A model generated the notes under the pieces. That model was not told the DNA's origin, searched no databases, and was given only the letters and a program-made list of their open reading frames with translations. Below, piece by piece: positions 10,661 to 52,668 of a stretch of 52,668 nucleotides of DNA. The stretch is from Saprospiraceae bacterium. Lineage in GTDB: Bacteria > Bacteroidota > Bacteroidia > Chitinophagales > Saprospiraceae. Where the stretch lies: NCBI GenBank assembly GCA_043756725.1, contig JAYUQN010001025.1, forward strand, positions 1 to 52,668. Reading direction: 5' to 3'. Made by a program: the position numbers and the translations under genes. Position 1 is the stretch's first letter, and each line of letters begins with the position of its first letter.

Positions 10661-10726
10661 AAAAAGAGTTTCCTATATTTGTCCTGTAATGCCTGTAATG
10701 ATAATTAATACCAAATCCACGATACT

Positions 10727-13478: not shown

Positions 13479-13627
13479 AAAACTAATTATCACGAAACAA
13501 AAAAAATATGTTTTGTACCCTTTAAATGGTATTTGGTAAGCATTTTGTATTATGAGAAAGATTGAAGAACAATAGTGCTTACTTTTTAAGCATTTTACAA
13601 ATAAATCAGCAAAAACGATACGCTTCT

Positions 13628-29000: not shown

Positions 29001-31620
29001 GAGTTTGGGGTCAATTGCTGCCACAAATGAAGCCAACGCCAATACATTTGCAGCCGATAATTCTTTTGAAATATGGGGCAGTAACGGCTTGGCTGCGGGT
29101 TATAATGTGACTTATACGCCGAGTTCTTACACGCCTATTTTTCCATTTAAATACATGAATAGACAATGGAAAGTGCAAGAAACAGGTACAGTAGGACCCG
29201 TTACGGTGAAAATAAACTCTAATGCCGATTATCTTTTAGTGGATACAGACGGAGACGGCAATTTTGCAACAGGTACAATAGATGAAATTGCTTTAACGAA
29301 TAAACAAGCCACCTATAATTTCAAAAATGGTGATGTTTTCACTTTTGGTAGAGAAGTGGTGGTTCAGACTTGTAACAATGGTTTGGCTTTTGTTCACGGT
29401 GACGATGCGACTTATGCGGCATCGGGCGGTGGTGCTGTTACCGAAGGGCTTTCTGCATGGCGGTCAAATGGTGATGGCACTTTCAGCAATACCCGCATTA
29501 CGCAAACTGGTTTTAATAGAAACAATACAGGAACGGAAGTTTTTGGCAATGATGTGTTTGCTTCAACTTATACATCTGATGTGGACAATGACGGCGATGT
29601 GGATATGATACATGTAACAGAAGACAATGCCAACAGCATTTATGTATATTTAAACAATGGCAACAGCACTTTCCAAACAACGCCAATTGTGACAACAGGT
29701 ATGCAAATGGGTACAAATAATGGTTTTGCAGGTCAATCGGCTGGTGAACAAGGTTGGATTGGTGACGCAAATGGTGATGGCAATGTGGACTATATTTTCT
29801 CTGGAAATGATGCCCAAGTCCATGTGTATTTGGGTTCTGGCGATGGTAAATTTGCTTTAACCCGCATTTCTTCTACTTTAATTGCTACGGGTTATCTCAC
29901 AAGTGGGATTTCAGGTGCTGAATTATTTTTAGTGGCAGATGTCAATAATGATGGTTCGATTGACTTAGTAGGCACTTATGACCCCGGACACATGCGGGTT
30001 TGGTTGGGCAATGGTGACGGCAGTTTTCAAGCCTATCCTTATTTTGATGCGGATATTCAAGACAGTGGTACGAGTAATTCTTCGGGCAGTGCGGACGATG
30101 AATACTCACAATTTGCAGACGTGGACGCTGATGGCGACTTGGATTATGTTCACGCAGAAGGCATGGATGGGACACCTCAAATTTGGGCTTTTTTAAACAA
30201 TGGCGATGGTACTTTTGCGACTAATGCTGTTTTAACCCAAGCCTCCACAAACCCTGGCGTTGGTTTAACAGATTTTGCGAATTATAATGTCGGCACACAA
30301 AGTTTCTTCGCCGATGTGAATAGCGATGGCAAAGCGGATTATATTTCAACCATTGACAATAATGGGGTAGGGTCTCAAAATGGTATCTATGTTTATTTGG
30401 CAACTTCAAATGGTAGTTTTGCCGTAACGCCAATTGCTACACCGATTACAACAGGTTTTGCAACAGGCTCAAATAATGCTACTGAAACCAGTTTTATTGC
30501 CTGTGGTATTGTCGTTTGTAATGCAGGAAACAATGCCCCCTCAGTATCTGCGACAAAAACGAATATTTGCCCCGCAACAATGGCTAATTTAAGCACTATT
30601 GTACCAGATAATAGCCCAAGTGGTGTTGTAACAACATGGCATACAGCTACACCTGCCACTTTATCGAATAGAGTTGCAGACAGTACGGCTGTCGGTGCGG
30701 GTGTCTATTATGCAGCATTTTTAGATAAAATAAATGGGTGTATTAGCCCGACTTCAACAGCCGTGACGGTGACAATAAATGCCTGTACAGCACCCGATTT
30801 GAAAACAACGATTTATCAACCCAATCCGTCATTGGTAGCCAATACAGCCAGTAATTTACCTGTTTCGGTGAAAAATGTGGGCGGTGCTTCGGCTTCGGGG
30901 GTTATTACAACAATCGTTACTTTACCAACGGGCGTATCTACACCCACTAATTTCACGACTAATGGCTCAACTTGTAACAGAAGTGGTCAAACGGTAACGT
31001 GTACCAATGCGGGTCCAATTGCAGTGAATGACAGTATTTTACTCAATGTGCCAATAACGCCAAGTGTATTATTGGTTGGTTCAACGCCTACTTTCAATGC
31101 GACTACAAATCCTGTTTCGGGTGAAACCAATACCAGCAACAATGCTGCAACGCCGACAACGGCATCAACAGCCGTAGTTGTTTTAACTGCACCCGATTTG
31201 ACAACAACGATTGGGCAACCCAATCCAGCTTTGGTAGTAGGACAAGCAAGCAATTTGCCGATTACCTTAAACAATGTTGGAACAGGTTCAGCCCCAGGGG
31301 TTATCACAACAACTATAACATTGCCAACAGGCGTAACCGCCCCTGCAACTTTTATTAACAATGGTTGGACGTGTTTGACATCTGCACCAACAGTGACGTG
31401 TACCAATTTAGGACCTATTGCAGCAGGAGGCAGCAGCACATTCAATGTGCCAGTCACACCTAATGCGTCAGTAGTGGGCACAAATCCAGTTTTTAATGCC
31501 AATACATTCCCAGTAATAGGTGAAACCAATACAAGCAATAATATAGGAACACCGACGCCGACAGCAGCAGCCGTACAAGCAGCCAGTTGTAATTGGACAC
31601 CGGGGGGTATTGGTAAATAA
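23059..31620 (+). CDS. Giant secreted protein (2853 aa): two FG-GAP/VCBS-like propeller blocks, four LamG-like modules, two DUF11/CARDB-like repeats
   Basis: The N-terminus is a signal peptide ending ...GQLPNAHAQ. FG-GAP-type calcium loops (ADVTGDGVVDIVH, ADVNGDGNLDYVTS, TDVNGDGKADLVAT, IDVNGDGKMDFVHT) occur near both ends. Four modules carry the repeated (S/T)YLAI(K/R)YG...GLNQKQS(K/R/Q)S...RIWK(V/I)QETGT(V/I)G motif set. Two near-identical modules follow: APDL(K/T)TTI.QPNP.LV...ASNLP. The tail is CNWTPGGIGK. Confidence 0.9.
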   Translation: MKPHFYNFFKVFQKKPNSFSKVLGFALFVAIFGQLPNAHAQSRLAFMHGADDNSGTGSGVSIWVSNGNGTFKQCKISDTGFDRDNLQSEVFGDDGSSTTFYADVTGDGVVDIVHASEYGGTNAIHVYRGNGRGGFSKTAITTSGMQSGSDGYVFTGNSGGESSFLADVNGDGNLDYVTSGNDRNIHTYLGNGNGTFATSRVSTTLTGANGYQTSGISTAEVAFLTDVNGDGKADLVATNEGDGRSIRVWLATTLGNFNATPVTTTGFQQTGSSIFTGIGGNETSAMIDVNGDGKMDFVHTNEFDANNDIFTFLGNGDGSFATTYVRSVVTNPAGTYYQAIGDWAGDYAQWIDVTGDNKVDFVTSADYLGVNSGIYVYTGNGDGTFNAAPIVTLGCGGFQTGSDFTETTRIVQVFSTGTTFANNCRVNPTGTTTAPGGVNDLLLWLKADDLTANAEGTSLATWSDSLSWGSVGQYYPTYRPTFNKTTASKLVNFNPSVSFNGGQELKTDHRLYCNNSQFQLVSVALDERNNPVELRAPFGIGGDGNYPAMDMQTDGISPNGFNPWMSYSSPAEWGAGTGVLYNGNTGGTNRQPQIFSLGSTNASTSAVDNIVSWVDGKKDATTLDAKQQTEIGNGMFLGSSGDAQWLGRIPETLIFTRQLNDGEMQKVNSYLAIKYGITLSQTMAQNYLASDSSVLWNATTNAAYKSDIVVIGRDDASGLNQKQSKSVNTGIQPIISLGAIAATNQANTGSFLTNKNFEAIGHNDLAANYATAYAPSSFTPVAPFYRMNRIWKVQETGTIGTVTIGIPLSNGAERLLVSTDASFAPASTQEILLTNDGNDNLKATVDLADGQFFTFGRIAVAPGCVVSGLQMWLKADAGVTGSTAVTKWDDQSVNGRALVQNTTGNAPAANATINFNPAFTFDGVNDRLEYKGTRFMSTTSSGTMYGAATNKYDGGYENLGVLGIDNPHMGTLANQQIMWMNSSAPVRIDQPGTLTPDQLYTWGYFWNGGTPDVGSGLRLDGKEFYDATTEATAVGSSGVSDGMFTVGSYEGLENWNGKIAEVILYDRNLTNVEKDKIETYLAIRYGNSLKHNYLSGAGVTIYDTTGYVNNIAGIGKEVCQGLNQKQSKSVNSGVQPIIGLARIDSTNAANTTEFAANNSFMVWGSNTGATNFGTAITPPAGISLNNRYGRIWKIQETGTVGIVKVAFPIRSGNGATVYLVRSTDATFDATDEFTPLSNLTVSGKEYLAANINFNNGDYFTVATFLTAPGCVASNLGLWLKADFSGTSTGENAEDWQDHSTNVNDVEVNGTMILQKGDANHNFQPYFGNFSATNFFKDMNSSLAPQGAFLASEVTMIAAVRPNTSTGTGRIMGIDNDDNFSGEPALSLSAGNPNYYRYWNTTKDFVTTTIPTTANQSTVISARTNGTEIKLGNNGAFESSTVVAGSGMWGDIMTVGYGSWSAAGAFPGEIQEVIWYKSALSNTEVQKINSYLGIKYGTSLNHPYLSGAGTTIYDTTGYAYNIAGIGRELCQGLNQKQSRSQNVGVQPIIALTALAETNFDNSATLEEGAYMIWGSTSGTGTFSNTINVPASVTANNRFSRIWKVQETGTVGTVQVALPSTLGNGATVYLVRSTDATFDASDEYLPLSIGVPSDSILTVGGSDYLATTINFNNGDYFTIATYLTAPGCVAANLNLWLKADKGLSSTTDGTTLNYWANQSINGIDSVYQATATARPTVFNTTKGNLVNFNPSLSFDGGDELISSNRLFSNTAPFTTIAMAIDRRTNTAELRAPMGMGYGNGNFLGLDFQTDGVSPYGFNPYSGVDAEWGNTTPNYRLNGLGHGSTNQNGNIVGLTTNNVAAGSDNVIAYVNGSKDNTTISANQNALFGNGIYVGSSGDAQWLGLVPEVIVYDRQLTDAEMQRVYSYLAIKYGTTLKQPYLNGAGNVVYDTTGYSKDIAGIAYEKCQGLNQKQSQSGNQGVRPTMSLGSIAATNEANANTFAADNSFEIWGSNGLAAGYNVTYTPSSYTPIFPFKYMNRQWKVQETGTVGPVTVKINSNADYLLVDTDGDGNFATGTIDEIALTNKQATYNFKNGDVFTFGREVVVQTCNNGLAFVHGDDATYAASGGGAVTEGLSAWRSNGDGTFSNTRITQTGFNRNNTGTEVFGNDVFASTYTSDVDNDGDVDMIHVTEDNANSIYVYLNNGNSTFQTTPIVTTGMQMGTNNGFAGQSAGEQGWIGDANGDGNVDYIFSGNDAQVHVYLGSGDGKFALTRISSTLIATGYLTSGISGAELFLVADVNNDGSIDLVGTYDPGHMRVWLGNGDGSFQAYPYFDADIQDSGTSNSSGSADDEYSQFADVDADGDLDYVHAEGMDGTPQIWAFLNNGDGTFATNAVLTQASTNPGVGLTDFANYNVGTQSFFADVNSDGKADYISTIDNNGVGSQNGIYVYLATSNGSFAVTPIATPITTGFATGSNNATETSFIACGIVVCNAGNNAPSVSATKTNICPATMANLSTIVPDNSPSGVVTTWHTATPATLSNRVADSTAVGAGVYYAAFLDKINGCISPTSTAVTVTINACTAPDLKTTIYQPNPSLVANTASNLPVSVKNVGGASASGVITTIVTLPTGVSTPTNFTTNGSTCNRSGQTVTCTNAGPIAVNDSILLNVPITPSVLLVGSTPTFNATTNPVSGETNTSNNAATPTTASTAVVVLTAPDLTTTIGQPNPALVVGQASNLPITLNNVGTGSAPGVITTTITLPTGVTAPATFINNGWTCLTSAPTVTCTNLGPIAAGGSSTFNVPVTPNASVVGTNPVFNANTFPVIGETNTSNNIGTPTPTAAAVQAASCNWTPGGIGK

Positions 31621-37818: not shown

Positions 37819-40800
37819 ATGAAACGATTGTTACACACAAAGGCAACCAACGCTTTCTTTCCCAAAACTTGGGCTTTGACACATAAGGCGCAGCTTATTT
37901 GTCATTATATTGATCGAACATTCCGACAAAGTCGGGAGGGAGGCATTTTAACAGTGTTAAAAAATAATTGGCTAAATTTTTATCGAAACAGCTTGTTTTG
38001 GCTCTGGCAAATATGCGTGCTCTTGCTCTGTTTGGGAAGCCAAGTGGCTCTTGCCCAACAAGAGAATTTGCCCTGCAATGCCCTCAATTCAACACCTTTT
38101 ATTCCACCAACCATTACAGGAACATTGAGCCAAACAACGTCCACAAGTGGTGTTGGTACAGTGTATTGGGAAAGTAGTGCGGGTTGCGTTTTGGGTTTAC
38201 CCTTGGGTTGTGGTAGTACACGTATCCCGGCTAATGTTATCAACAGCAGTACAACCGATTTTGCAAGAGTAAACTTGGCAGTCGGCTTAGGCTTATCGGC
38301 AACAATGCGCGTGACTGAAGCTACGAATACCTATTCAGCAGGTAATTTTGCAGGTTATTTGATAGATAATGCCTCTTTGGTGAGTGCAGGTTTATTGAGT
38401 GCGATAACGGTTAAAACGTATAATAACGGCACTTTGGCAGAAACAAGTTCCGCAGGTTCATTGATTGGCGTGAGTTCTACTTTGGTAGCCAATAAATATG
38501 AAGTTGGTTTTTATACCACACAGCCTTTTGATGCCATTGAAATTACGTTTAACAGTGTCGCAGGATTAGCCGTTACTTATGATGTGTATTATCCTGTTGT
38601 GCGTAAATATTGTGCATCGCCGAGTTTGGTTTGCAATACAAAAACAGGTTTGAACAAAAATGCAACACCCGCCCAATCCTTTGCGACTGAAATTGATTAT
38701 GCGAATACAGGCATCAGTGGCGTTGCCCTTGCGACAATATCCAATCCAGAATCGGCTATTAGCCCAAGTACAACCGATTTTGCAAGCGTCCTTTTTCCAG
38801 TGGGTATAGGTAGCGCGACTTTGGCAGTGAAAGACCATGCTACGACTTATGACGCAGGGCATTTAGTAGGTTTCGATATTGAAAATGTGACCGCTTTGGG
38901 TGTAGGACTTTTTAATAGTACCACAATAACGACTTATCTGAATGGCGTGCAAAGGGAAACAGCTTCGGGCAGCAGTTTGGCAATATCGGGTGGTTTATTG
39001 AGCAGTTCGGGTCGGCAAATTGTTGCTTTTGTAACAAATATGAGTTTTGATGAAATTAAAATTACGTTAAATCAAAATGGCGTAAGTCTTGGTACAACTA
39101 AAATTTATAATGCTGTTGTCCAAAAATTTTGTGCTGCCACCATTGCTTGTAATCAAACCTACTCTTTCAACAATCCCGACTATCCTGTTGTGATAGACGG
39201 GCTTTTGACGGGGCTATCGGGTGTGGCTTGTGTGGGTTGTTCTGTCAGTAATACAGATAATCTACTCACGGCAAGCACAACGGATTATGCAACGATTAAC
39301 GTTTTGGCAGGTTTAGCCGCTTCTGGTGCTGTTGCCGTTCAGGATGTCCTTTATACTTATCCTGCGGGAACTGCAGCAGGGTTTACGATTAAAGATGAAA
39401 ACAGCCTTTTGGAATTGAATTTATTGGGTTCTATGACGGTTTCAACCTATAATAATGGTGTTTTACAAGAGTCCAAAACAGCCAATAATTTGTTTAATTT
39501 TACTGTAACAACCCAATGGACGGGTTTGGGTTCGGGTGCTTATAATATTGGTTTTATAGCAACCTTGCCTTTTGATGAAATCCGATTAAGCGTGGGTTCT
39601 TTGCTAAGTGGTTTAAATACCATCCGTGTTTATGGCGCATTTGTGAATACAGAAACGTCCTATGGCGGTTCGCTTATTTGTGCTTCCACTTTCAATTTTA
39701 ATTGTGCAACAGCCACTTCGACAGGTACATTTATGGCAAATGGCACAAGTGGACAATTAGGCAATTTAACTCTACTCATTACAGGCACAACGGCTGGTAG
39801 TGCCGCTTTTACTGTAACAGGTTCTGGATTTACAGCTAACGCAATTATACCCCTTACAGCAGGTCAAACATCAGTTACAATACCCATTAGTTACAATGGT
39901 AGTGGTTCGGCAGGGTCAAGAACTTTGACCATTAATGCCTTATCTGCTACGGGTACGTGTACGCCTTCTGTAACTGTTGTCCCCGATAACAGCCATTGTC
40001 TTACCTCATTACCAACTTTATTGCCACTTGGGTCGGTACTTTCTATTGTTGATTTTTGCCCCAAAGGTTCGTATAATTATTACAAATCGGCAGGGTCTTC
40101 CCAAGATATGTTGGCAATAAACCCTAATAACAATGTGTTTCAGCCAACAAATGTGGTCATAGATGCAACCGTAACGGGTACTAATAGCCAATCAAGTGGC
40201 GGTTTTACAACAGCAATAGCACATCGTTTGATTAGCATTGAAGCTACTGGCACACATCCTATAAATGGTGGCATAAAAGTTCGTATTTATTACAATCCTT
40301 CTGAATTTTCAACATTACCAACCGCAAATCGCCGTTGGTTCAAACACCCTGCCCATACAAAAGCCAATGTTTTATCGAATTTAACAGCCACAGGTTTGAC
40401 CAATGCCACGTTTTTGACACCCGATTCAGTAGGCACTGAAAATGGCTTATCCTTCGTAGAGTTTTTTAACATTCAAAACTTTTCAACTTTTGGATACATG
40501 GGTTCGCAAGCACCCGAAGACTGTACAAATGGTATAGACGATGATGGCGATGGTTTGATAGACTGCGATGACCCCGATTGTGGTAAACCCATTATCACAT
40601 CTATTGTAAAAACAAACCCCGCCATATCAAGTTGCCCTAACTTGAATGATGGGTCAATTACTATCACCGCAACAGGTTCTAACCTACGGTATTCAAAAAA
40701 TACGGGTACAACTTGGCAAGTTTCCAATGCTTTCAATGGTTTGACAGCAGGAACAACAACCATTCGGATTCAAGACAGTGTTTCAACTTGTTTAATAGAT

Positions 40801-43800
40801 ACAACCATCGTTTTAACCGCACCAACTTGTAATGAAGCCCCTACAATTACGTCTGCCACAACTGCTAATTTTGCTGAAAATGGCACAGGAACAGCTTATA
40901 CAGTCATTGCAAATGACGCTGATGCTGGTCAAACCAAGACCTATTCGTTTGAAACAGGTGGCGCAGATAATGCTTTATTTTCAATAAATCCAACAACGGG
41001 TGCAGTGACTTTTAATACAAGTCCCGATTTTGAAAATCCAACAGATGCGAGTAACGATAATGTGTATAATATTAAAATAAAAGTTTGTGATGATGGCACG
41101 CCTCAATTATGCGTCATTCAAGATGTGGCAATAACGGTAACGAATGTTGCCGATACAGAAATTTGCAACAATCAAATAGATGATGATGGCGATGGTAAAA
41201 TAGACGGTGAAGACCCCGATTGTACTGAACCCGCTTGTAGCAATACCACAGGTACAATTACAGGAACTATTGCAGGACAAAATACAAATGCAAGTTTCAC
41301 CCAAAAATATGTCTTAACCGATAGTACAGGGAAGATTTTACAGATTTTAAACACCCCCTCAGTATCAGGCTTGTCTGCGGGTAAATACCGTTTTTATGCT
41401 GTGAATTATGAAACAGCAAGTGGCATTACAGGTTTAACGGCTAATCAAAACATAAGCGGCGTAACTGGAACGTGCGTAAATATTTCGCTACCCTTATTGT
41501 ATAAAATATGTGTAGGTACTGAAATCTGCAACAATCAACTCGATGATGATGGCGACGGTAAAATAGACGGCGAAGACCCCGATTGTGCCGAACCCGCTTG
41601 TGATAATACAACTGGAACAATTACCGCTACTATTGCAGGTCAAAATACAGGTGCAGGTTTCACCCAAAAATATGTTTTAACCGATAGTACAGGTAAGATT
41701 TTACAGATTTTAACCACCCCCTCAGTATCGGGCTTGTCTGCGGGTAAATACCGTTTTTATGCTGTGAATTATGAAACAGCAAGTGGCATTACAGGTTTAA
41801 CGGCTAATCAAAATATAACGGCTGTAACGGGTACGTGTGTCAATATTTCATTGCCTTTATTGTATAAAATATGTATGCTGCCTTGTTCTGTTATCAATAT
41901 TCCCAATATTTCAAAAACAAACCCGAGTGTAACAAGTTGCCCTGTTTTAAATGATGGCACTGTCACAATAACAGCAACGGGTTCAAATTTAAGATATTCA
42001 AGAGACAGTGGGGCTACTTGGCAAACTTCCAATATTTTCAATAATTTGATAGCTGGAACGGTTTTAATTCGCGTGCAAGACAGTGTAGGCTTGTGTTATA
42101 AAGATACAAGTATTGTTTTAAATGCGCCCCTTTGTTGTGCAACACCCACAGTAGGTGGAACAACAAGTTTGGTTGGCGGTCAAACGTTATGCGATGTTTA
42201 TAATGCAGACAGGATAGCTGTGAGTGGCAAAACGGGCAATGTTCTTAAATGGCAAACTTCAACCAATGGCGGTACTTCATGGACAGATATTCCTTTTACG
42301 GGCGATACATTGAGTTTTAACAATGCCATTAACAATCAAAAATACAGAGTCCTTATCAGCAATGGTACATATTGCAGCAATGATACTTCAACAGTAACGA
42401 CCATTCAAACAGAACCTTATGCGTGTTGTAATAGTACAGATGGTTCAATATCAGCGACTTATGGAGGTTTTAGTACAGACCCAAGTCATACAAATAAATT
42501 TGCATTGACCGATACCACAGGGCGTATTTTACAAATTACGAACACCCTTTCCGTAGGAACACCTAAGGTGCAGTATTCTAATTTAAATACGGGCTGGTAC
42601 TATATCTACGCCATTACTTATGATTCTTTGGGCTATGTGCGCGGTTTAAATGTTGGGTCAGATATTGATACTTTAAATGGAGAATGTTTATTGAAAACAG
42701 CACCCATACCTTATAAAGTCTGTCGGGGTGCAAAATTGGAACATAGCGTAGAGGTCAGTGCTTCAACTGTTTGTCTAAATGGCATCAGTGATTATACTTT
42801 AATAGTTAGAAATACAAGTACCAATCCTGCTCGAAATGTGGTTATTTCAGATACTTTGGCAACAGGTTTAGTGTTTTTAGTAGATACTGTTCAACTCACA
42901 GGTGGAGCAACTTATTCTGCCAATACCGTTCCTGCGACCAATGCTACAGGTGTTTTACAATGGGGGAGTTTTGATATTCCTGCGGGCGATTCGGTCATAA
43001 TTACCGCTATTTTCAAAGTAGCAAACACAGCTATGGCAGGTATTTTTCACAACAGCTTAGGCTCTATTTCAACCCAAGATACAATTGTGCCTTTTATAGG
43101 CAATTTAGCCGCAAATACCTCCGATGATTTGACCGTAAGCACCACAGGCGATTGTGCAAATGGTGGGCAATCCATAGCGTGTAGCCCCTCATTTTATCAA
43201 ATTTTTACACAAAATCGCTCTACCAAATTCGCTCAATTAAATGTGCCAACGCTGAGTTACACCGTCGTCGGTTCAGGTCCAAGAGGCATGAATGCCATAG
43301 GAGTGAATGAAAAAACAGGCTTTGCTTACGGGGTTTTGAACGTGTCTGGTATGACCCGTTTTATAAAAATAGGAGCCAATAATACCGTTTTTGATATGGG
43401 CGTTAATCTCGGCAGCCCTTTTATCATAGCAGGTGATTGCGATACAAGCGGCTATTGGTGGGCAAAACACGGCAACCAGTTTTTGAAAGTAAAACTTTCA
43501 GACAATAGCCAAATCCATTATACCCCCACAGGCTCTGCTGTTTGGGGCGCGGATATGGTTTTTAGAAGAGTTGATAAAAAGTTTTACAGTGCAAATGGTA
43601 CAACTTTAAGTATTTATGACCCGCTTTCAAATAACGTTTCAACCCTAACTTTGACAGGCGACGTCACCACAAATGGCTCTGGCACTTATGGCGGTCAATG
43701 GGCAGGGGCGGATGGTGAAATCTATATTTCAAGCAACGTGTCAGGTAAAATTTATAAAGTAGATGTGGCAACAGGGGCAACAAGTTTGATTATCACAACA

Positions 43801-45348
43801 GCGGGCGGCATGAGCGTCAACGATGGTTACTATTGCCCCGATGCTATTCGCGCTTTGGGCGACAAAGACAAAGACGGTATCATTAATTACACGGATATTG
43901 ACGATGATAATGATGGTATTTTAGACACCACAGAAGGCATGGTGGATACAGATAATGATGGCATCACAAACGATTTTGATTTGGACAGTGACAATGATGG
44001 CATCCCCGACATTATAGAATCTCAGACAACTGCTGGATTTATGATACCCAGTGGAACTCTGACCGCAACAGGCTTATGGAATAATTATGGCACAGGCACA
44101 ACGCCTATTGATACCGATAATGACTTAATACCCGATTATTTGGACGCAAACAGCGACAACGAAGGCGGCACTGACACCTTTGAAGGTGCTCTAATTTTGT
44201 CAAATAACGACTCTGATAAAGACGGTTTAGATGATGCCATTGATGATAATGACACCGCTTTTGGCTCTCCTCATGCAGGCATTACTAACGTTTTAACCCA
44301 ATATCCGAATACAGGAACCCAAACAGATTGGCGAAATTCTCTGCCAACTACCCCCTCAGTATCAGGCACAAATTTGACCGTTTGGCAAGATACAACTATC
44401 TCGCTTTGCTTGCCCATTGCCGATAATAACCCTTTGCATACGTTTATACCTACTTTGTGTGGAATGCCTTTACATGGCTCTGTGTCAGGTTTGACGGTCA
44501 ATAATCTGACACGACAAGTGTGTTTTAACTACACTTCGGACAGCCTTTTCATAGGACAAGACAGTTTCTGCGTGCGAATTTGCAATCAGAGTGGGTATTG
44601 CGATACGGCTTCTATAAAAATCAATATTGTAGCGGGTTGTGTAACGATGCAGGTGAAAGTTTTACTTGAAGGAGCTTATGAAACTTCTACCAGTAAAATG
44701 ACTACTATATTAAATCAACGGGGTTTGCTACCGGGTCAAACGCCTATCGGTCAATTTGCCATAGCAACCCCGAAAGGGCAACCCTACAAAGGTGCACCGT
44801 GGAGTTACGCTGGCACAGAAGGCGATACCATAACCACTTACCCGCCAACGGTAACGGATTGGGTGTTGCTAACTTTGAGAGCTGATACCTTGAGTTATAC
44901 GCCGCTTTATCGGGTGGCAGGTTGGCTGCACGAAAACGGCACGATTACATTCTCGCAAGGCTGTATCGCCATTCCAAACGGTTCGTACTTTGTTTTAATA
45001 GAACATAGAAACCACATGGGCGTACTGTCGTATCGAAAAGTGTCTATTGAAAACCGTGTAATGAACTTCGATTTCACCACAGCCGATTCGTACATCCGCA
45101 CCAACCCTCCATCTTTTGGTCAAAAATTGAAAGGTGGAAAATGGACGATGTATGCAGGAGACGGTAAAAAAGATACATTCACGACAAATTTTGACATCAA
45201 TTTCAACGATACGCAATTGTGGAAAGGGCAATCAGGTACATTTGACCAATATAAATTTGGCGATTTCAACCTCGATGCCGATGTCAATTTCTTAGATAAT
45301 CAATTGTGGAAAATAAACAATGGAAAATATTCGGGTGTTCCACATTAA
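37819..45348 (+). CDS. Giant secreted multidomain adhesin-like protein (2509 aa from the tracked ATG)
   Basis: The hydrophobic signal core FWLWQICVLLLCLGSQVALAQ sits about 60 aa in, so GTG at 37954 is an alternative start. Four roughly 190-aa repeats (S(T/S)TDFA.VN...TYSAGNFAGY...TYNNG...FDEI(K/R)IT) come first. They are followed by one FNFNCA module, C-x-N-x-(I/L)DDDGDG.IDC.DPDC metal-binding motifs, SprB-type repeats and a cadherin-like domain (APTITSATTANFAENG...). Then come three Cys-bounded modules, one DUF11-like repeat, thrombospondin-type-3 calcium repeats (DTDNDGITNDFDLDSDNDGIPD) and a dockerin-like C-terminal domain. Confidence 0.9.
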   Translation: MKRLLHTKATNAFFPKTWALTHKAQLICHYIDRTFRQSREGGILTVLKNNWLNFYRNSLFWLWQICVLLLCLGSQVALAQQENLPCNALNSTPFIPPTITGTLSQTTSTSGVGTVYWESSAGCVLGLPLGCGSTRIPANVINSSTTDFARVNLAVGLGLSATMRVTEATNTYSAGNFAGYLIDNASLVSAGLLSAITVKTYNNGTLAETSSAGSLIGVSSTLVANKYEVGFYTTQPFDAIEITFNSVAGLAVTYDVYYPVVRKYCASPSLVCNTKTGLNKNATPAQSFATEIDYANTGISGVALATISNPESAISPSTTDFASVLFPVGIGSATLAVKDHATTYDAGHLVGFDIENVTALGVGLFNSTTITTYLNGVQRETASGSSLAISGGLLSSSGRQIVAFVTNMSFDEIKITLNQNGVSLGTTKIYNAVVQKFCAATIACNQTYSFNNPDYPVVIDGLLTGLSGVACVGCSVSNTDNLLTASTTDYATINVLAGLAASGAVAVQDVLYTYPAGTAAGFTIKDENSLLELNLLGSMTVSTYNNGVLQESKTANNLFNFTVTTQWTGLGSGAYNIGFIATLPFDEIRLSVGSLLSGLNTIRVYGAFVNTETSYGGSLICASTFNFNCATATSTGTFMANGTSGQLGNLTLLITGTTAGSAAFTVTGSGFTANAIIPLTAGQTSVTIPISYNGSGSAGSRTLTINALSATGTCTPSVTVVPDNSHCLTSLPTLLPLGSVLSIVDFCPKGSYNYYKSAGSSQDMLAINPNNNVFQPTNVVIDATVTGTNSQSSGGFTTAIAHRLISIEATGTHPINGGIKVRIYYNPSEFSTLPTANRRWFKHPAHTKANVLSNLTATGLTNATFLTPDSVGTENGLSFVEFFNIQNFSTFGYMGSQAPEDCTNGIDDDGDGLIDCDDPDCGKPIITSIVKTNPAISSCPNLNDGSITITATGSNLRYSKNTGTTWQVSNAFNGLTAGTTTIRIQDSVSTCLIDTTIVLTAPTCNEAPTITSATTANFAENGTGTAYTVIANDADAGQTKTYSFETGGADNALFSINPTTGAVTFNTSPDFENPTDASNDNVYNIKIKVCDDGTPQLCVIQDVAITVTNVADTEICNNQIDDDGDGKIDGEDPDCTEPACSNTTGTITGTIAGQNTNASFTQKYVLTDSTGKILQILNTPSVSGLSAGKYRFYAVNYETASGITGLTANQNISGVTGTCVNISLPLLYKICVGTEICNNQLDDDGDGKIDGEDPDCAEPACDNTTGTITATIAGQNTGAGFTQKYVLTDSTGKILQILTTPSVSGLSAGKYRFYAVNYETASGITGLTANQNITAVTGTCVNISLPLLYKICMLPCSVINIPNISKTNPSVTSCPVLNDGTVTITATGSNLRYSRDSGATWQTSNIFNNLIAGTVLIRVQDSVGLCYKDTSIVLNAPLCCATPTVGGTTSLVGGQTLCDVYNADRIAVSGKTGNVLKWQTSTNGGTSWTDIPFTGDTLSFNNAINNQKYRVLISNGTYCSNDTSTVTTIQTEPYACCNSTDGSISATYGGFSTDPSHTNKFALTDTTGRILQITNTLSVGTPKVQYSNLNTGWYYIYAITYDSLGYVRGLNVGSDIDTLNGECLLKTAPIPYKVCRGAKLEHSVEVSASTVCLNGISDYTLIVRNTSTNPARNVVISDTLATGLVFLVDTVQLTGGATYSANTVPATNATGVLQWGSFDIPAGDSVIITAIFKVANTAMAGIFHNSLGSISTQDTIVPFIGNLAANTSDDLTVSTTGDCANGGQSIACSPSFYQIFTQNRSTKFAQLNVPTLSYTVVGSGPRGMNAIGVNEKTGFAYGVLNVSGMTRFIKIGANNTVFDMGVNLGSPFIIAGDCDTSGYWWAKHGNQFLKVKLSDNSQIHYTPTGSAVWGADMVFRRVDKKFYSANGTTLSIYDPLSNNVSTLTLTGDVTTNGSGTYGGQWAGADGEIYISSNVSGKIYKVDVATGATSLIITTAGGMSVNDGYYCPDAIRALGDKDKDGIINYTDIDDDNDGILDTTEGMVDTDNDGITNDFDLDSDNDGIPDIIESQTTAGFMIPSGTLTATGLWNNYGTGTTPIDTDNDLIPDYLDANSDNEGGTDTFEGALILSNNDSDKDGLDDAIDDNDTAFGSPHAGITNVLTQYPNTGTQTDWRNSLPTTPSVSGTNLTVWQDTTISLCLPIADNNPLHTFIPTLCGMPLHGSVSGLTVNNLTRQVCFNYTSDSLFIGQDSFCVRICNQSGYCDTASIKINIVAGCVTMQVKVLLEGAYETSTSKMTTILNQRGLLPGQTPIGQFAIATPKGQPYKGAPWSYAGTEGDTITTYPPTVTDWVLLTLRADTLSYTPLYRVAGWLHENGTITFSQGCIAIPNGSYFVLIEHRNHMGVLSYRKVSIENRVMNFDFTTADSYIRTNPPSFGQKLKGGKWTMYAGDGKKDTFTTNFDINFNDTQLWKGQSGTFDQYKFGDFNLDADVNFLDNQLWKINNGKYSGVPH
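41155..41880 (+). repeat. Tandem 363-bp (121-codon) duplication inside the 2509-aa gene
   Basis: Copy 1 is 41155..41517 and copy 2 is 41518..41880. They are roughly 90 percent identical by eye. Each encodes EICNNQ(I/L)DDDGDGKIDGEDPDC.EPAC.NTTGTIT..IAGQNT...FTQKYVLTDSTGKILQIL.TPSVSGLSAGKYRFYAVNYE...LLYKIC. Each also carries one copy of the CCCCTCAGTA motif. Confidence 0.9.
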
Positions 45349-46635: not shown

Positions 46636-47958
46636 TTATGTTTCTTTTAATTTATTTTCAATTTCGTCCGTTATTTGATTTCCTATGGTATTGATGAAAT
46701 TAATTATTTCTTCATGTGAAAGTGTTTCAGAGTATTTTTTTTCAATTATAGGTGCCAAAATACATGTAGTGCTTTTTATCAAAAAGCCGTCATTCTTAAA
46801 TGAAACTTCAATTTCAATATAAATATGATCAGATTTTTTACTCAGATTTTTATATTCTGTCCAGAGTGAATTAAAACTCATTTTACTCAAATTAGCTAAA
46901 TAATTGTCTTTTTTTAAACCCTCAAGAGTTGCTTTTAAATCTATGCTTTTAAGAGGTGTTTCGATGCCACTAAAAAAGTATATTGATTTAGAACAATTAT
47001 CATAAAATTTATTGAAAATAGAAAATTTACTTTCAGCATATTCAAAAATAGGAGCTATACTATTAATTGTTACTAAATAGACCGTCTCATTAGATTTCAA
47101 CAAAACATTATTGCCGTTAGTTGCTTGATATTCAAGCAATTGCAAACGCTTCTCCCAATCCTCCAACTCAAATATACTTTCGCCTTTAGCCCCTTTGATA
47201 CAAATTTCAAAAGAACGAATCAAAAGATTACCCAGCATTTCATATAAAGGCACAGGATTTTCTTCATACTGTTGGGCATGAGAAATATATTTGCTATACA
47301 AATCCTTTTCTTCTGTCCGAATAATAATAGGTGGATAGCCATAAGAAATTAAAATCAAGTTCATCAAAATCCGTGCAGTTCGTCCATTACCATCTAAAAA
47401 AGGGTGAATAGTCAAGAAGCGAAGATGGTATTCAAAAGCAATTTCGGGAACAGTTTTCTTGGATTTATGCTTTTTAACAGCCATCAATTCATTATCAAGC
47501 CAATTGGTAAGACTGTTTGTGGCTTCAATTGTTTCTTCTTGTGGTGTAAAATCGAAGCGTTCGCCTTGATAATTGTAGATATAATTGTTGCAATTTTTGA
47601 AACGCCCCGGCATATCCGCTTCATCAAAAATAATGGCTTTATGGATTTCTTTGATGCGATTTTCCGTTATTCGTATTTCACCACGCCCGACTTTTTGGAT
47701 GTTTTTAATGATTTCATCATGCCCTCGCATTTCCATAACATCTCGTAGTGGCTTGCCTCTGACATCTAATTGTTCCATCATCACGCTGCGGGTTTCCTCA
47801 AAAGTCAAAGTGCCACCTTCCATTTTATTAGAATGATAATTCCATTCGAGCCTAAATTTATAGTTGATTTTTTGCAAACGGTCATTGGGGATAGGGTGGA
47901 AGCTATCCAATTCGAGTTTCAATCTTTCTATTTCTGTTAAAATGGTTGGCAAAGACAT
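46636..47958 (-). CDS. Fic-domain protein (probable AMPylase) with an N-terminal inhibitory motif and an uncharacterised 190-aa C-terminal extension
   Basis: The Fic motif is HPFLDGNGRTARILMNL. An upstream S-x3-E-G inhibitory-helix motif (HSNKMEGG) is present. The protein is 440 aa. Confidence 0.9.
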   Translation of the reverse strand: MSLPTILTEIERLKLELDSFHPIPNDRLQKINYKFRLEWNYHSNKMEGGTLTFEETRSVMMEQLDVRGKPLRDVMEMRGHDEIIKNIQKVGRGEIRITENRIKEIHKAIIFDEADMPGRFKNCNNYIYNYQGERFDFTPQEETIEATNSLTNWLDNELMAVKKHKSKKTVPEIAFEYHLRFLTIHPFLDGNGRTARILMNLILISYGYPPIIIRTEEKDLYSKYISHAQQYEENPVPLYEMLGNLLIRSFEICIKGAKGESIFELEDWEKRLQLLEYQATNGNNVLLKSNETVYLVTINSIAPIFEYAESKFSIFNKFYDNCSKSIYFFSGIETPLKSIDLKATLEGLKKDNYLANLSKMSFNSLWTEYKNLSKKSDHIYIEIEVSFKNDGFLIKSTTCILAPIIEKKYSETLSHEEIINFINTIGNQITDEIENKLKET

Positions 47959-47973
47959 GTTTTACTTTTTACG

Positions 47974-48348
47974 TCAAAGATAATCGCTCACTGCAAAACA
48001 AGTTACATTATCAGGCAGGTTTTCAAAATCTTTAAAAGAATTGGTGGTGTAAATCGCATCAATATGCGCCAAATCAAAGCCTTTGCTGAAAATACCGTGA
48101 CTGACTATCAACACTATTTTACCCGCATTATGGCGTTTCAACAAAGCCGACAAACCGACAAACGTACCCCCACCATCGTAAATATCATCTACAATAAAGC
48201 AGATTTTGCCTTCAAAATCACTTTCCATTGTCTTAAAATCCGATAAATTGCCCGTTTTTACATCCCGCATTTTCATACATTCAGCTACTCGTGGTTTCAA
48301 CAAAGGTGGTCTGAAATTGAACCTATTTTTAATGTAATAGGATGCGAT
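47974..48348 (-). pseudogene. 3-prime remnant of a type I phosphoribosyltransferase (Prs/PRTase-like)
   Basis: The PRPP-binding loop is KICFIVDDIYDGGGTF. Only about 110-125 codons are open: the frame runs to a stop at 48349..48351 with no ATG, and the tracked start is TTG at 48303. The N-terminal half of the fold is absent. Confidence 0.55.
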
Positions 48349-49045: not shown

Positions 49046-49612
49046 TTATTTAATGATTTTTGCATCAACAGTACCGTCTTTAAAATGATATACCAAGTCT
49101 TTTCTTCCGCTTCTCGGCAAAGACTTAAAGGTTAAATCAAACTTTACAGCTACTCGAGTAGAATCAAGAAAAGTTAATTCCACATAATTTGATATTTTAG
49201 TAGTATCCAATACAAAATTCACTGAAGGTCCATCATGCTCTTTTAAACCATAATGTATAAGGCATTCATTGTCTAATCTTTCAAGCGAGGTTTTGAGTGT
49301 AAACTTAGAGTACTTATTCAATCTATTAGGAATTGTAAATGTAAAAATCTCAGTTATATAGTTGGTAGAGTCATCAAAAAATGTACCAGCAGTAACATCA
49401 ACTGCCTTAATATCAGCACGTAAATGTGCGCCCGATGAGGCAGTCCAAATCTTATTATTTAGTGTAGCACTTGCTTGACCGAATTTCATATTTCCGGGTC
49501 TAAAAATTCTCACATTATCAATCATTTCTGCTATTTCAGTTTCAACAACTGGCTTTTTGCAAGAAGCCACAAATAAGGATATAGAGATTAAAATAATGGT
49601 AAAGAATTTCAT
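49046..49612 (-). CDS. Lipoprotein of unknown function, translationally coupled to the metalloprotease gene
   Basis: The signal peptide plus lipobox-like sequence is MKFFTIILISISLFVASC. Its start overlaps the upstream stop (ATGA on the minus strand at 49612..49609). Confidence 0.7.
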   Translation of the reverse strand: MKFFTIILISISLFVASCKKPVVETEIAEMIDNVRIFRPGNMKFGQASATLNNKIWTASSGAHLRADIKAVDVTAGTFFDDSTNYITEIFTFTIPNRLNKYSKFTLKTSLERLDNECLIHYGLKEHDGPSVNFVLDTTKISNYVELTFLDSTRVAVKFDLTFKSLPRSGRKDLVYHFKDGTVDAKIIK

Positions 49613-51423
49613 AATTTTATAAGTTTTACAATGTTAAACTGTTGTTTATTTTGCAATTTCAGCATATAAAATCCAGTTGGAATATTTGATAAATCAATCT
49701 TAAAAGCATGAAATCCTTTGGTGAAAATTTCATTTTTAATATTTTTGACATTTCTGCCTTGAAAATCAACTATATCAATGGATGTATTTGAAAGCTCATC
49801 ATTGATGTCAAATTCAAGGTTATAATAGCCATTGCTTGGATTAGGGTATACGTTTACCGACGTATTTTGATTAGTTGAGCCTTGTGTTAGGTAATAATTA
49901 TTATCACAACTTGCATTGAATGGAGTAGAAACAACTTTTACAACACCATCATTTGATGTTACCCGTAGGTGGATCCAAAAATTCGATATCCCTGAATTAT
50001 AAAAGTAAATTGTCGAGCCAGTTCCTATTCTATTAGCAGGATTATCATCAAACATCGAGTTTAATGTCAAAAACCATTCATAAGTATACGGTGACTGGCC
50101 TGGCATACCAGGTGCTGCGGGGGACACACTTGCATTTAACTGAAGTACATTACAAGTTACCCCTGAATAAGAAATATAGGCATCCAATTCCGGTGAAGTC
50201 CTAAAATTTTGAACAATACAACCCGTATTGCGTATAGTTTTAGTATTATTGGCTTCTTGACCCGTAACATTACTACCAGTCACTGCATTATTATATGAAA
50301 TATCTGGATTTGAGAAATGAAGGATTGTTCTATCTATCTCGCTTTGATGACCAACAGCCATCATTGTTTTTCTTATGACGCCTGTACCATCTGTAAACCT
50401 AAATCCATGTCCACAACTTGGTTCATCATCATCGCCAATACCATCATTGGATCTATTATGCCTCGCACCTAATAAATGACCAATTTCATGTGGAAATGAC
50501 CAAAATCCCCCTAAAGAATGTTGAACTTCAACAATTGCATAAGATTTGGCATCCTCTAATTCTAAGGTTCCATATTGTCCAAAATAAGGAGACCCAAATA
50601 AATTATAGTTGTTATTTGTAATTGCCACAACCAAATCAGCTTTATATAAGTTTCTTAAATTCTGTGCTTGTGTATTATTTATTAGATCGTTTATAGCAAC
50701 CTCAATATTATGATTACTTGAAAATGGTGTGTTGAAATTCACAGCTCTTACTCTAATTTGTTTATTAGATATTCCGCTGTTTTGTAAAGCTAAATTCGTA
50801 AAAGCTTGTAAAAGTGGTATGTAAAGGACTTGTGACCAAAAATCCATATTTTCCGTTATCCAATTAGTTGCTTCGGGTGTAATTAATAAGAGAACATCAA
50901 TTGTGGCTGGGCAAAAAGTACCGTCAGATAATGTACATGGATTTTCAATAGTTTGCATTCTTTGTTGTAAGGCAAATCCATTAGTTTGAGGTGAAGGTTC
51001 TATTGGACATACGGCCTTTTCATATTTAGAAATGTCATGCTCTACCAAAAGACAGAAATTATTTTTTAGAGGCTGTAACAAAAAGAATTTATCATCATAT
51101 TGAATAGCTCCCATTATTCCTTCTGGTTTTACAGCAAGCAGCATATAGCCTGATTTGCCTATTAGCTCTCCTGACCAAATATAATCATCTTTGCCGAAAT
51201 ACTCGAATCTTTTTGATTTTACTGTAATATTTTCTCCAGCAAGTGATACGGTGAGTGCGTCTTTAACAAGTGATTCCTTTAGTTTTTTGACTTTAACAAC
51301 AGTAACGTTTTTTGTGTGTTTATTGCCTTTTACTGTTGTGATAATTTTTTTCTGATTTGCATTTAATTGAGCTTCCTCGGGTGAAGATTCAGAAAAAAAT
51401 TTGTTAGGATTTTGTGCAATCAA
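49609..51423 (-). CDS. Metzincin zinc metalloprotease with a T9SS type-A C-terminal sorting domain; the 5-prime end is out of frame with its ATG and signal peptide
   Basis: The zinc motif is HEIGHLLGARH (HExxHxxGxxH). The C-terminal VYPNPSNGYYNLEF...GFYMLKLQNKQQFNIVKLIKL is a T9SS CTD. The tracked start is TTG in the middle of a hydrophobic segment. The ATG at 51505 is in another frame, separated by a 7-bp repeat (see the finding at 51423..51505). Confidence 0.85.
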   Translation of the reverse strand: MIAQNPNKFFSESSPEEAQLNANQKKIITTVKGNKHTKNVTVVKVKKLKESLVKDALTVSLAGENITVKSKRFEYFGKDDYIWSGELIGKSGYMLLAVKPEGIMGAIQYDDKFFLLQPLKNNFCLLVEHDISKYEKAVCPIEPSPQTNGFALQQRMQTIENPCTLSDGTFCPATIDVLLLITPEATNWITENMDFWSQVLYIPLLQAFTNLALQNSGISNKQIRVRAVNFNTPFSSNHNIEVAINDLINNTQAQNLRNLYKADLVVAITNNNYNLFGSPYFGQYGTLELEDAKSYAIVEVQHSLGGFWSFPHEIGHLLGARHNRSNDGIGDDDEPSCGHGFRFTDGTGVIRKTMMAVGHQSEIDRTILHFSNPDISYNNAVTGSNVTGQEANNTKTIRNTGCIVQNFRTSPELDAYISYSGVTCNVLQLNASVSPAAPGMPGQSPYTYEWFLTLNSMFDDNPANRIGTGSTIYFYNSGISNFWIHLRVTSNDGVVKVVSTPFNASCDNNYYLTQGSTNQNTSVNVYPNPSNGYYNLEFDINDELSNTSIDIVDFQGRNVKNIKNEIFTKGFHAFKIDLSNIPTGFYMLKLQNKQQFNIVKLIKL

Positions 51424-51458
51424 GACAGTTTGAATTAATAAACATAAGACAATTAGTA

Positions 51459-51489
51459 CGTGATGCGTGATGCGTGATGCGTGATGCGT
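51459..51489 (-). repeat. Heptanucleotide tandem repeat (CGTGATG on plus strand, CGCATCA on the coding strand), 4 copies plus a partial copy
   Basis: The sequence acgtgatgcgtgatgcgtgatgcgtgatgcgta was read directly. It lies inside the 5-prime region of the metalloprotease gene. Confidence 0.95.
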
Positions 51490-51834
51490 AATAAAGTTGT
51501 TTCATTTTAAATTTTGATTTGATTAAAAAATAAATTTTAATAGGCAAATATAAGATTAATCATCGTATAAGTCAAATATTTTATACTTATTTTTATACTT
51601 GATTACAAAGCTTGTCCCCTCAGTATTAACATGAATTATACTAATTAAACCAAATTATTTATGATTTATTAGTAGTTAAATTAGTGTTGCAAGTCATTTG
51701 GCTCGTGTTAAAAAAGTGAAATACTGAAGGGTAGCCATTCATCAATCCAAAATAAGACAGTATAGGACAGTTATTTCAAAAAGAGGTTTTACCTTTGAGG
51801 GTGAAAAAAATCAATCAATTAAAAATATAAACGT

Positions 51835-52668
51835 ATGTCTATAAACAAAAACTACAAGCACGTAAGCTACCTCTGGGACGAGTCCAAAGCCGCATCAATG
51901 GCAGGCGATGAAGTCGCATTATTCATCTATCGCTCCAACTTATTAGGGGCAGATTTGCGCTTAACAAACTACGGCGGCGGCAATACCTCTGTCAAAATAA
52001 CCGACAAAGACCCTTTGACAGGCGAATCCATAGAAGTGATGTGGATAAAAGGCTCGGGTGGTGACATCGGCACTTTGAAAAAATCGGGTTGCGCTGCCTT
52101 GTACATGGAGCGTTTGTTGAACCTTGAAAACGTCTATCGGGGCATCGAACACGAGGACGAAATGGTCGAGCTTTTCAACCATTGCATCTTCGATTTGGCA
52201 TCTAAAGCACCGTCTATTGATACGCCTTTGCACGGCTTTTTACCTTTCACTCACATTGACCACTTGCACCCAGACGCAGCCATCGCCATTGCTGCCGCTA
52301 AAGACGGTGCTAAAATCACACACGACCTATTCAATGGTGAAATCGGTTGGGTAGAATGGCAACGCCCTGGCTTCGATTTGGGCTTAAAACTCCGCACTTG
52401 TTTGAACGATGCGGCTGCAAAAGGCATCAAATTGAAAGGTATTATGTTGGGTTCGCACGGACTTTTCACTTGGGGCGATTCAGCTTACGAAAGTTATATA
52501 AATACATTAGAGGTGATTGAAAAATGTGGACAATACCTTGAGGATAATTATGGTAAAAAACGCCCTGTTTTCGGAGGTCAAAAAACGGAAAGTCTTTCAC
52601 CCGATGAAAGGCTTAAAAAAGCCGCTAAAATTGCTCCGATACTGAGGGGGTATTGTTCTTCCTCTGAT
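51835..52668 (+). CDS. Bifunctional rhamnulose-1-phosphate aldolase / short-chain dehydrogenase, N-terminal part (runs off the right edge)
   Basis: It is absent from the ORF track because it has no stop in the window. ATG at 51835 opens 278 codons to the window end. The product reads MSINKNYKHVSYLWDESKAASMAGDEVALFIYRSNLLGADLRLTNYGGGNTSVKI...VMWIKGSGGDIGTLK..., matching the conserved N-terminus of this family as recalled. Confidence 0.8.
   Translation, partial: MSINKNYKHVSYLWDESKAASMAGDEVALFIYRSNLLGADLRLTNYGGGNTSVKITDKDPLTGESIEVMWIKGSGGDIGTLKKSGCAALYMERLLNLENVYRGIEHEDEMVELFNHCIFDLASKAPSIDTPLHGFLPFTHIDHLHPDAAIAIAAAKDGAKITHDLFNGEIGWVEWQRPGFDLGLKLRTCLNDAAAKGIKLKGIMLGSHGLFTWGDSAYESYINTLEVIEKCGQYLEDNYGKKRPVFGGQKTESLSPDERLKKAAKIAPILRGYCSSSD

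What the first reader, a model, noticed from the sequence alone, without database searches (positions are those of the whole stretch)
51423..51505. A heptanucleotide repeat in the signal-peptide region puts the T9SS metalloprotease out of frame: candidate slipped-strand phase-variation switch
On the coding (minus) strand the 5-prime end reads ATGAAACAACTTTATTA(CGCATCA)x4 CGTACTAATTGTCTTATGTTTATTAATTCAAACTGTCTTGATTGCACAA. From the ATG at 51505, the frame gives MKQLYYASRITHHASRTNCLMFINSNCLDCTKS and then stops. The long metzincin frame upstream of its tracked TTG start (51423) reads ...THHVLIVLCLLIQTVLIAQNPNKFF, a signal-peptide hydrophobic core with no start codon. Removing one 7-bp unit, or adding two, fuses them into MKQLYYASRITHHVLIVLCLLIQTVLIAQNPNK.... 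That is a canonical Sec signal peptide, which a T9SS cargo protein needs. With four units the gene is therefore in an OFF configuration. This is the same logic as the pentamer repeats in the Neisseria opa signal-peptide regions. The downstream lipoprotein gene (49046..49612) is translationally coupled and would be switched together with it.
Basis: partly seen in the sequence, partly recalled or inferred. Interest (0 to 1): 0.7.

Follow-up and report, generated by a model that had tools for sequence, protein, structure and literature searches.

The report
Heptamer repeat switch in secreted protease
A four-copy 7-base repeat just after the start codon puts a secreted metalloprotease gene of an uncultured Bacteroidota bacterium out of frame; relatives carry the same repeat at the same spot in other copy numbers, so it is most likely a slippage on/off switch of a kind already known from pathogens.

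Summary
(CGCATCA)x4.4 lies at 51459..51489 on the minus strand, 17 nt after ATG 51505. It is the only perfect repeat of 3 or more copies with a 4-12 nt period in the window.

With four units, the ATG frame stops after 33 codons. The 604-codon metzincin ORF with a T9SS sorting domain is then left with only a TTG start and no signal peptide. Only 3, 6 or 9 units restore a Sec signal peptide ending LIA|Q.

New comparative evidence:
- The promoter and ATG-AAA start are conserved in two related lineages.
- The same heptamer sits at the same position in three diverged relatives, at 2.1, 2.3 and nominally about 21 copies, although synonymous sites are saturated.
- The gene is under purifying selection (dN/dS about 0.2).
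- Three other samples carry the same strain. Their only difference over 3 kb is the base bordering the tract.

No ON allele or direct length variation was seen in this strain. The tract is short. Two relatives have deleted the protease but kept the downstream lipoprotein.

Verdict: a real, probably ancient simple-sequence contingency locus captured in the OFF state. It works like E. coli NeuO and Neisseria Opa, so it is a new member of a known kind.

The parts
51459..51489 (-). Heptanucleotide tract (CGCATCA)x4.4, 31 periodic nt. All three sense frames encode cyclic ASRITHH without stops. The antisense strand has TGA in every frame.
51503..51505 (-). Native ATG start codon (ATG AAA ...). It is conserved in L165 and L168 and lies 17 nt upstream of the tract.
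51545..51575 (-). Promoter-like element TTGACT-N-TATATTTG (Bacteroidetes TTG / TAnnTTTG type), 39 nt upstream of the ATG. Its core positions are conserved in L165 and L168.
51404..51505 (-). Out-of-frame 33-codon product of the present four-unit (OFF) allele, including its TAA stop.
51415..51459 (-). Signal-peptide hydrophobic core and cleavage region (VLIVLCLLIQTVLIA, followed by Q at +1). It is reached from the ATG only when the unit number is a multiple of three.
51458..51458 (-). First base after the tract. It is T in the window and C in contig L124, and both alleles are inferred in the sample of L125. This is the only difference in about 3 kb among same-strain contigs.
49609..51423 (-). 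Metzincin (Reprolysin-like, HEIGHLLGARH) with a T9SS C-terminal sorting domain. The 604-codon ORF, as tracked from TTG, is intact.
49046..49612 (-). Downstream lipoprotein gene (lipobox VASC) whose start overlaps the protease stop by ATGA. It belongs to a small family of all-beta proteins with no significant PDB match.

Best explanation
The tract is a simple-sequence contingency locus. A heptanucleotide repeat sits in the part of the gene that codes for the n-region of the signal peptide of a T9SS-secreted metzincin.

Proposed mechanism:
1. Slipped-strand mispairing at replication adds or removes 7-nt units.
2. Because 7 is not a multiple of 3, only unit numbers divisible by three join the conserved ATG to the hydrophobic core and the A|Q cleavage site. 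That gives an exportable pre-protein (ON).
3. The other two phases terminate after 12-40 codons (OFF).
4. The window carries a four-unit OFF allele, one deletion step away from ON.

Shown: the tract, the frames, the intact and selected ORF, the conserved start and promoter, and the presence of the tract at the same site in diverged relatives with different copy numbers.

Inferred: that slippage happens at a useful rate in this strain, and that OFF also lowers expression of the overlapping downstream lipoprotein gene.
For: - Perfect 4.4-unit tract, unique in the window.
- Frame logic verified for n=1-9.
- Conserved promoter and ATG-AAA in window, L165 and L168.
- The same heptamer lies directly before the hydrophobic core in L002 (52% identical protein; nominally about 21 units), in L165 (2.1 units) and in L168 (2.3 units). 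Meanwhile synonymous sites between window and L002 are saturated (pS 0.72; nucleotide identity 0.60).
- dN/dS is 0.205 against L001 and 0.164 against L002, with no internal stops.
- The repaired N-terminus aligns with the signal peptides of roughly 30%-identical homologues and ends in A|Q (Q-rule, PMC5837995). Its hydrophobic core has a peak Kyte-Doolittle value of 3.9.
- Same-strain contigs from three other runs are identical over 3 kb except for the base at the tract border.
- L124 begins with exactly k-1 = 30 periodic nt, as simulated for an allele of 5 or more units.
- Four units exceeds the standard cut-off of 3 or more for 6-9 nt units (PMC5953494).
- A precedent exists in the NeuO heptanucleotide VNTR, which is ON only at multiples of three (PMC3046976).
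Against: - No ON allele (629 aa) exists in the 5.8-billion-protein collection, and no other tract length was recovered for this strain.
- The L124 contig break could equally be caused by another organism's long (CGCATCA)n tract in the same metagenome.
- The copy number in L002 is unreliable. Its first 50 nt are 66% GC against 36% for the rest, which indicates a chimeric join through the repeat.
- Four units is short compared with well-studied switches.
- Two relatives have deleted the protease, so the gene is dispensable, and this allele may simply be a step towards loss.
Confidence: 0.6

Rival explanations
1. This is a plain loss-of-function allele. A one-off slippage or indel event frameshifted a dispensable protease gene, the four-unit tract is too short to revert at a meaningful rate, and the gene is at the start of the decay already seen in relatives.
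For: - Only the OFF allele was found.
- L165 and L168 retain the leader with about two units but have deleted nearly the whole protease while keeping the lipoprotein.
- L165 is also out of frame.
- The window's T at 51458 shortens the periodic run by 3 nt relative to the C allele.
Against: - The 604-codon ORF is intact in a 33% GC gene, and dN/dS is about 0.2.
- The tract has been kept at this site across saturated synonymous divergence, and it is long in L002.
- A single-unit deletion restores the frame.
- The tract passes the usual cut-off for phase-variation candidates (PMC5953494).
Confidence: 0.27
2. The frameshift is an assembly or sequencing artefact. The real tract has three or six units, or more units that were collapsed.
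For: - Repeats are hard to assemble.
- Contigs L001, L124 and L125 all break at or next to the tract.
- L002 is chimeric at the tract.
Against: - The tract is 31 nt, well below read length and common final k-mer sizes.
- 7-nt indels are not a typical read error.
- At k=31 a four-unit allele assembles straight through in simulation.
- L124, from an independent sample and assembler, shows at least four full units directly before the same flank.
Confidence: 0.05
3. The heptamer array has a role other than frame switching, and the frame problem is bypassed or irrelevant. It could be a protein- or RNA-binding array near the start codon, like the TAACTGA repeats proposed as translational regulator sites in Beggiatoaceae.
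For: - (CGCATCA)n occurs in 120 or more places in many phyla.
- In 92 arrays, an open frame of 150 or more codons follows in the sense direction in 54 cases, against 25 in the antisense direction.
- MacGregor 2015 describes heptamer arrays just upstream of start codons (PMC4679880).
Against: - Same-composition control heptamers are about as common in viral contigs (17 hits against 10, 9 and 0), so the unit is not special.
- In this clade the tract lies after the conserved ATG, inside the coding region.
- There is no in-frame start codon between the tract and the hydrophobic core.
- The orientation bias is expected anyway, because the antisense strand carries TGA in every frame.
Confidence: 0.08

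Closest known systems
NeuO O-acetyltransferase poly-psi VNTR of E. coli K1 (prophage CUS-3)
   Same: Both have a heptanucleotide unit in the 5' coding region, just after the start codon. Both give a full-length protein only when the copy number is a multiple of three, and every three units encode one heptad (RLKTQDS there, ASRITHH here). Switching in NeuO is by strand slippage (PMC3046976).
   Different: The unit sequence differs (AAGACTC). NeuO is a cytoplasmic enzyme whose heptads tune its activity. Here the heptads lengthen the n-region of a cleaved signal peptide and are absent from the mature protein. Copy numbers of 2-93 and switching have been measured for NeuO; nothing has been measured here.
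Neisseria opa genes (CTCTT pentamer in the signal-peptide coding region)
   Same: The repeat lies inside the signal-peptide coding sequence of a surface or secreted protein. The frame, and so expression, is set by the unit number (PMC3745409, PMC5953494).
   Different: Opa uses a pentamer that encodes part of the hydrophobic core. It is a multi-copy adhesin family in a host-restricted pathogen. Here there is a single metzincin gene in an uncultured environmental Bacteroidota bacterium, exported by Sec and then T9SS.
Long simple sequence repeats of 5-11 nt, with heptamers predominant, as surveyed by Mrazek 2007; TAACTGA arrays of Beggiatoaceae, Cyanobacteria and Bacteroidetes
   Same: These are tandem heptanucleotide arrays that are scattered across phyla and often sit close to gene starts (PMC4679880).
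   Different: Those arrays are mostly intergenic, and TAACTGA contains stop codons. The array here is open in all sense frames and lies inside the ORF.
Invertible-promoter phase variation of Bacteroides surface structures (from my own knowledge)
   Same: Both give stochastic ON/OFF control of surface or secreted products in Bacteroidota.
   Different: The mechanism there is site-specific DNA inversion, not repeat slippage. No invertase or inverted repeats were implicated here.

Membership tests
SSR-mediated phase-variable (contingency) locus | A perfect tandem repeat at or above the accepted length threshold (3 or more units for 6-9 nt units) | tested here: met
   4.4 perfect units; cut-off taken from PMC5953494
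SSR-mediated phase-variable (contingency) locus | The tract lies inside the ORF, its unit length is not divisible by 3, and unit gain or loss toggles a full-length frame | tested here: met
   n=3, 6, 9 are open and all other n stop; the start codon is conserved
SSR-mediated phase-variable (contingency) locus | Different repeat numbers, both ON and OFF, among closely related cells or strains | tested here: inconclusive
   Only n=4 was recovered for this strain. The L124 contig break fits 5 or more units but has another possible cause. Between lineages the numbers are 2.1, 2.3, 4.4 and about 21.
SSR-mediated phase-variable (contingency) locus | A measured high-frequency, reversible switching rate | not testable with these tools
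   Needs cultures or raw reads
SSR-mediated phase-variable (contingency) locus | The downstream ORF is otherwise intact and functional | tested here: met
   604 codons without a stop; dN/dS 0.205 and 0.164
NeuO-type heptanucleotide 5' VNTR | A 7-nt unit next to the start codon, ON only at multiples of three | tested here: met
   compared with PMC3046976
NeuO-type heptanucleotide 5' VNTR | Homology to neuO or its AAGACTC unit | tested here: not met
   The unit is CGCATCA and the protein is a metzincin
T9SS cargo protein | C-terminal sorting domain (Por_Secre_tail / TIGR04183) | tested here: met
   PF18962 at 9.9e-13; TIGR04183 at 1.4e-08
T9SS cargo protein | N-terminal Sec signal peptide | tested here: not met
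   Absent from the present allele, because the TTG start lies at the end of the hydrophobic core. It is present only in the repaired frame.
Metzincin metalloprotease | HEXXHXXGXXH zinc-binding motif | tested here: met
   HEIGHLLGARH at residue 312; Reprolysin_3/4/5 hits

The most novel reading that the evidence does not exclude
This is an ancient, selectively maintained heptanucleotide contingency locus in the signal-peptide region of a T9SS-secreted metzincin operon of uncultured environmental Bacteroidota, retained across lineages whose synonymous sites are saturated. It would be the first repeat-slippage switch described for a T9SS cargo, in a phylum where phase variation is otherwise known from DNA inversion. 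The repeat length could also tune the signal-peptide n-region.
Probability: 0.45. Interest if true: 0.55.

Novelty: new member of a known kind. Interest (0 to 1): 0.42.

Why it matters
Repeat-slippage switches are textbook biology for host-adapted pathogens such as Neisseria, Haemophilus, Campylobacter and E. coli K1. They are hardly documented in Bacteroidota, in free-living uncultured bacteria, or for cargo of the type IX secretion system. A full-text search linking T9SS, phase variation and slipped-strand found only one general review.

If the switch is real, stochastic control of a secreted protease is under long-term selection outside the host-pathogen setting.

There is also a practical lesson. 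Gene callers annotate this gene from an internal TTG as a signal-less 604-aa protein.

Tried and rejected
- Metagenome scan with the exact flanks and a variable gap, to catch other tract lengths of this strain: 0 hits.
- Protein-guided metagenome scan for more orthologues: the patterns were too unspecific, and the one hit was an irrelevant 28%-identical relative.
- Exact look-ups of the 604-aa ORF and of the 33- and 47-aa leader ORFs: not on record.
- A search with the divergent RhaD fragment, to find same-strain contigs on the 5' side and to name the organism: best hit 87% identity, and no closer assignment than Bacteroidota.
- A protein search with (ASRITHH)x6: only 24 short ORFs of 41-73 aa, probably spurious.
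- The idea that CGCATCA is a special cross-phylum motif: rejected, because same-composition control heptamers are similarly frequent in viral contigs (17 against 10, 9 and 0), and the loci that carry it are rich in many other heptamers.
- A literature search for the tandem sequence itself: nothing relevant.
- Contig circularity: no terminal overlap, and a different gene runs off the window start.
- Lipoprotein function: no Pfam or NCBIfam hit. The AlphaFold model is good (pLDDT 83), but there is no PDB match with E below 0.06.
- Protease against PDB sequences: no hit.
- The L002 copy number as a hard figure: rejected, because its 5' 50 nt are a GC-rich chimeric join.

Full report
**1. Observation**

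The minus strand reads ATGAAACAACTTTATTA (CGCATCA)x4 CGTACTAATTGTC.... Tandem Repeats Finder gives period 7, 4.4 copies and 100% matches at 51459..51489. The 21-nt triple unit is expected 0.00 times in shuffles. This is the only perfect repeat of 3 or more copies with period 4-12 in the window.

The ATG 51505 frame ends after 33 codons, at 51404..51406. The long ORF 49609..51423 has only a TTG start. Upstream of that TTG it reads ...THHVLIVLCLLIQTVLIAQNPNKFF. Its domains are Reprolysin_3/4/5 and the T9SS sorting domain, and it carries the motif HEIGHLLGARH.

Rebuilding the leader with 1-9 units shows that only 3, 6 or 9 units give one open frame.

**2. Is ATG 51505 the real start?**

- A Bacteroidetes-type promoter match, TTG-N20-TATATTTG, lies at 51575..51545, 39 nt upstream.
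- Contigs found through orthologues of the downstream lipoprotein show the same layout. In L165 and L168 the blocks AATATTTGAC ... TTTG ... TTTTTTAAyCA ... TTTAmA-ATG-AAA are conserved and are followed within 12 nt by the heptamer.
- No in-frame start codon lies between the tract and the hydrophobic core.
- The repaired N-terminus (n-region with K2 and R9, hydrophobic core VLIVLCLLIQTVLI, then A|Q) aligns with the signal peptides of roughly 30%-identical homologues. It also follows the Bacteroidetes rule of glutamine at position +1 (PMC5837995).
- The TTG product would begin at the end of the hydrophobic core, so it could not be exported. A T9SS cargo needs that export step (established knowledge of the pathway).

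**3. Comparative evidence for the tract**

- The 52%-identical orthologue P0003 (contig L002) has the same unit at the same place. It is translated as (ASRITHH)n and is directly followed by LLILCLFISFRADA|QNPNRFF.
- The nominal copy number in L002 is about 21. However, the first 50 nt of that contig are 66% GC against 36% for the rest. This looks like a chimeric join through the repeat, so only "long" is safe to say.
- L165 has 2.1 units before LLLLCFLISIKADA|QNPNRFF..., but the protease is truncated after about 63 codons, and its ATG is out of frame with the hydrophobic core.
- L168 has 2.3 units fused to the last ~40 residues of the sorting domain.
- The tract is therefore ancestral to this clade, and its copy number differs in every lineage seen.
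- Between window and L002, nucleotide identity is 0.60 and pS is 0.72, which is saturated. The unit is nevertheless identical.
- dN/dS is 0.164 against L002 and 0.205 against L001. The gene has been functional over the long term.

**4. The same strain in other samples**

- Three Logan contigs (L124, L125, L126, from three SRA runs) encode the identical lipoprotein.
- They match the window at every base over up to 3036 nt, except position 51458, the base bordering the tract. It is T in the window and C in L124.
- A k=31 unitig simulation reproduces both contig starts exactly. L125 is what a mixture of T and C alleles gives. L124 is what a C allele with 5 or more units gives. A four-unit C allele would give the same start if another genome in the sample contributes long (CGCATCA)n tracts. 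A four-unit allele on its own would assemble straight through.
- This is suggestive of length variation, but it is not proof.

**5. Is the heptamer special?**

- (CGCATCA)x3 occurs in at least 120 places in the species-representative genomes. The hits are mostly in Chloroflexota, Verrucomicrobiota and Desulfobacterales, with a few in Bacteroidota.
- The surrounding loci are rich in other heptamer arrays: 232 of 261 perfect short repeats found there have period 7.
- Same-composition control heptamers are about as frequent in viral contigs (17 hits against 10, 9 and 0).
- This matches the known predominance of heptanucleotides among long simple repeats, as summarised in PMC4679880.
- The shared unit in window, L002, L165 and L168 therefore reflects common descent of this gene's leader, not a universal motif.

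**6. Mechanism and rivals**

The best reading (confidence 0.6) is a contingency locus that works by slipped-strand mispairing, with the window caught in an OFF phase one unit away from ON. The logic is that of NeuO, a heptanucleotide VNTR after the start codon that is ON only at multiples of three (PMC3046976), and of opa, where the repeat lies inside the signal-peptide coding region. Four units passes the usual candidate threshold (PMC5953494).

The main rival (0.27) is a plain null allele in a dispensable gene. It is supported by the absence of any ON allele and by the two lineages that deleted the protease. An assembly artefact (0.05) and a non-switch role for the array (0.08) are unlikely.

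**7. The lipoprotein**

- Its ATG overlaps the protease stop as ATGA. The same overlap is present in L001, and there is a 3-nt spacer in L002.
- The protein is conserved, at 43% identity to the L002 copy.
- It belongs to a small family of 16 representatives.
- It is predicted to be all-beta with good confidence (pLDDT 83), but it has no significant PDB match.
- It survives in lineages that lost the protease, so co-switching with the protease is plausible through polarity or coupling but remains unproven.

**8. Verdict**

It is a new member of a known kind, found in an unusual taxon and secretion system. Interest is moderate.

Noticed in passing
window 9000..11995: A plasmid-type replication and partition module. 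It has a ParA-like ATPase (9000..9722, minus strand), a Rep3-family initiator (10727..11995, plus strand) and 5.1 copies of a 22-nt iteron-like repeat just upstream of the initiator (10342..10454). The contig may be a plasmid or an integrated element. No terminal overlap was found.
   Followed up: partly
genome loci L003-L122 (e.g. L078 327..438, L035 6418..6484, L010 2776..2882): (CGCATCA)n arrays of 3-16 units occur in many phyla, especially Chloroflexota and Verrucomicrobiota, in genomes rich in other heptamer arrays. A long open frame follows more often in the sense direction (54 of 92 arrays) than in the antisense direction (25 of 92). Several arrays end right at a start codon. No paper containing this tandem sequence was found.
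   Followed up: partly
L165 3498..3738 and L168 2154..2357: In two related lineages the protease gene is almost wholly deleted. What remains is the promoter, the ATG, about 2 heptamer units and a stub. The downstream lipoprotein gene is intact in both.
   Followed up: yes
L002 1..50: The contig of the 52% orthologue begins with 50 nt at 66% GC that include the reverse complement of the heptamer. This is probably a chimeric or fold-back assembly through the repeat. The called N-terminus MREHGWACSNFRR is therefore not real.
   Followed up: yes
window 51835..52668 (+) and L165 1..3293: The protease operon lies next to rhamnose-utilisation genes in both lineages. In the window the divergent neighbour is a RhaD-like class II aldolase. 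In L165 the neighbours are rhaM, an FMN dehydrogenase and a GD_AH dehydratase.
   Followed up: no
window 41154..41874: A 363-nt tandem duplication (2.0 copies, 89% identical) lies inside the 2509-aa ORF 37819..45348 (DUF6923 repeat protein). Two other giant ORFs are present. One, 23059..31620 (2853 aa), has FG-GAP repeats. The other, 13562..18457 (1631 aa), has no Pfam hit.
   Followed up: no
window 47974..48303 (-): A 109-aa ORF matches only the C-terminal part of the phosphoribosyltransferase / PRPP-synthetase domains. It is possibly a gene fragment. It lies next to a Fic-domain gene (46636..47958).
   Followed up: no
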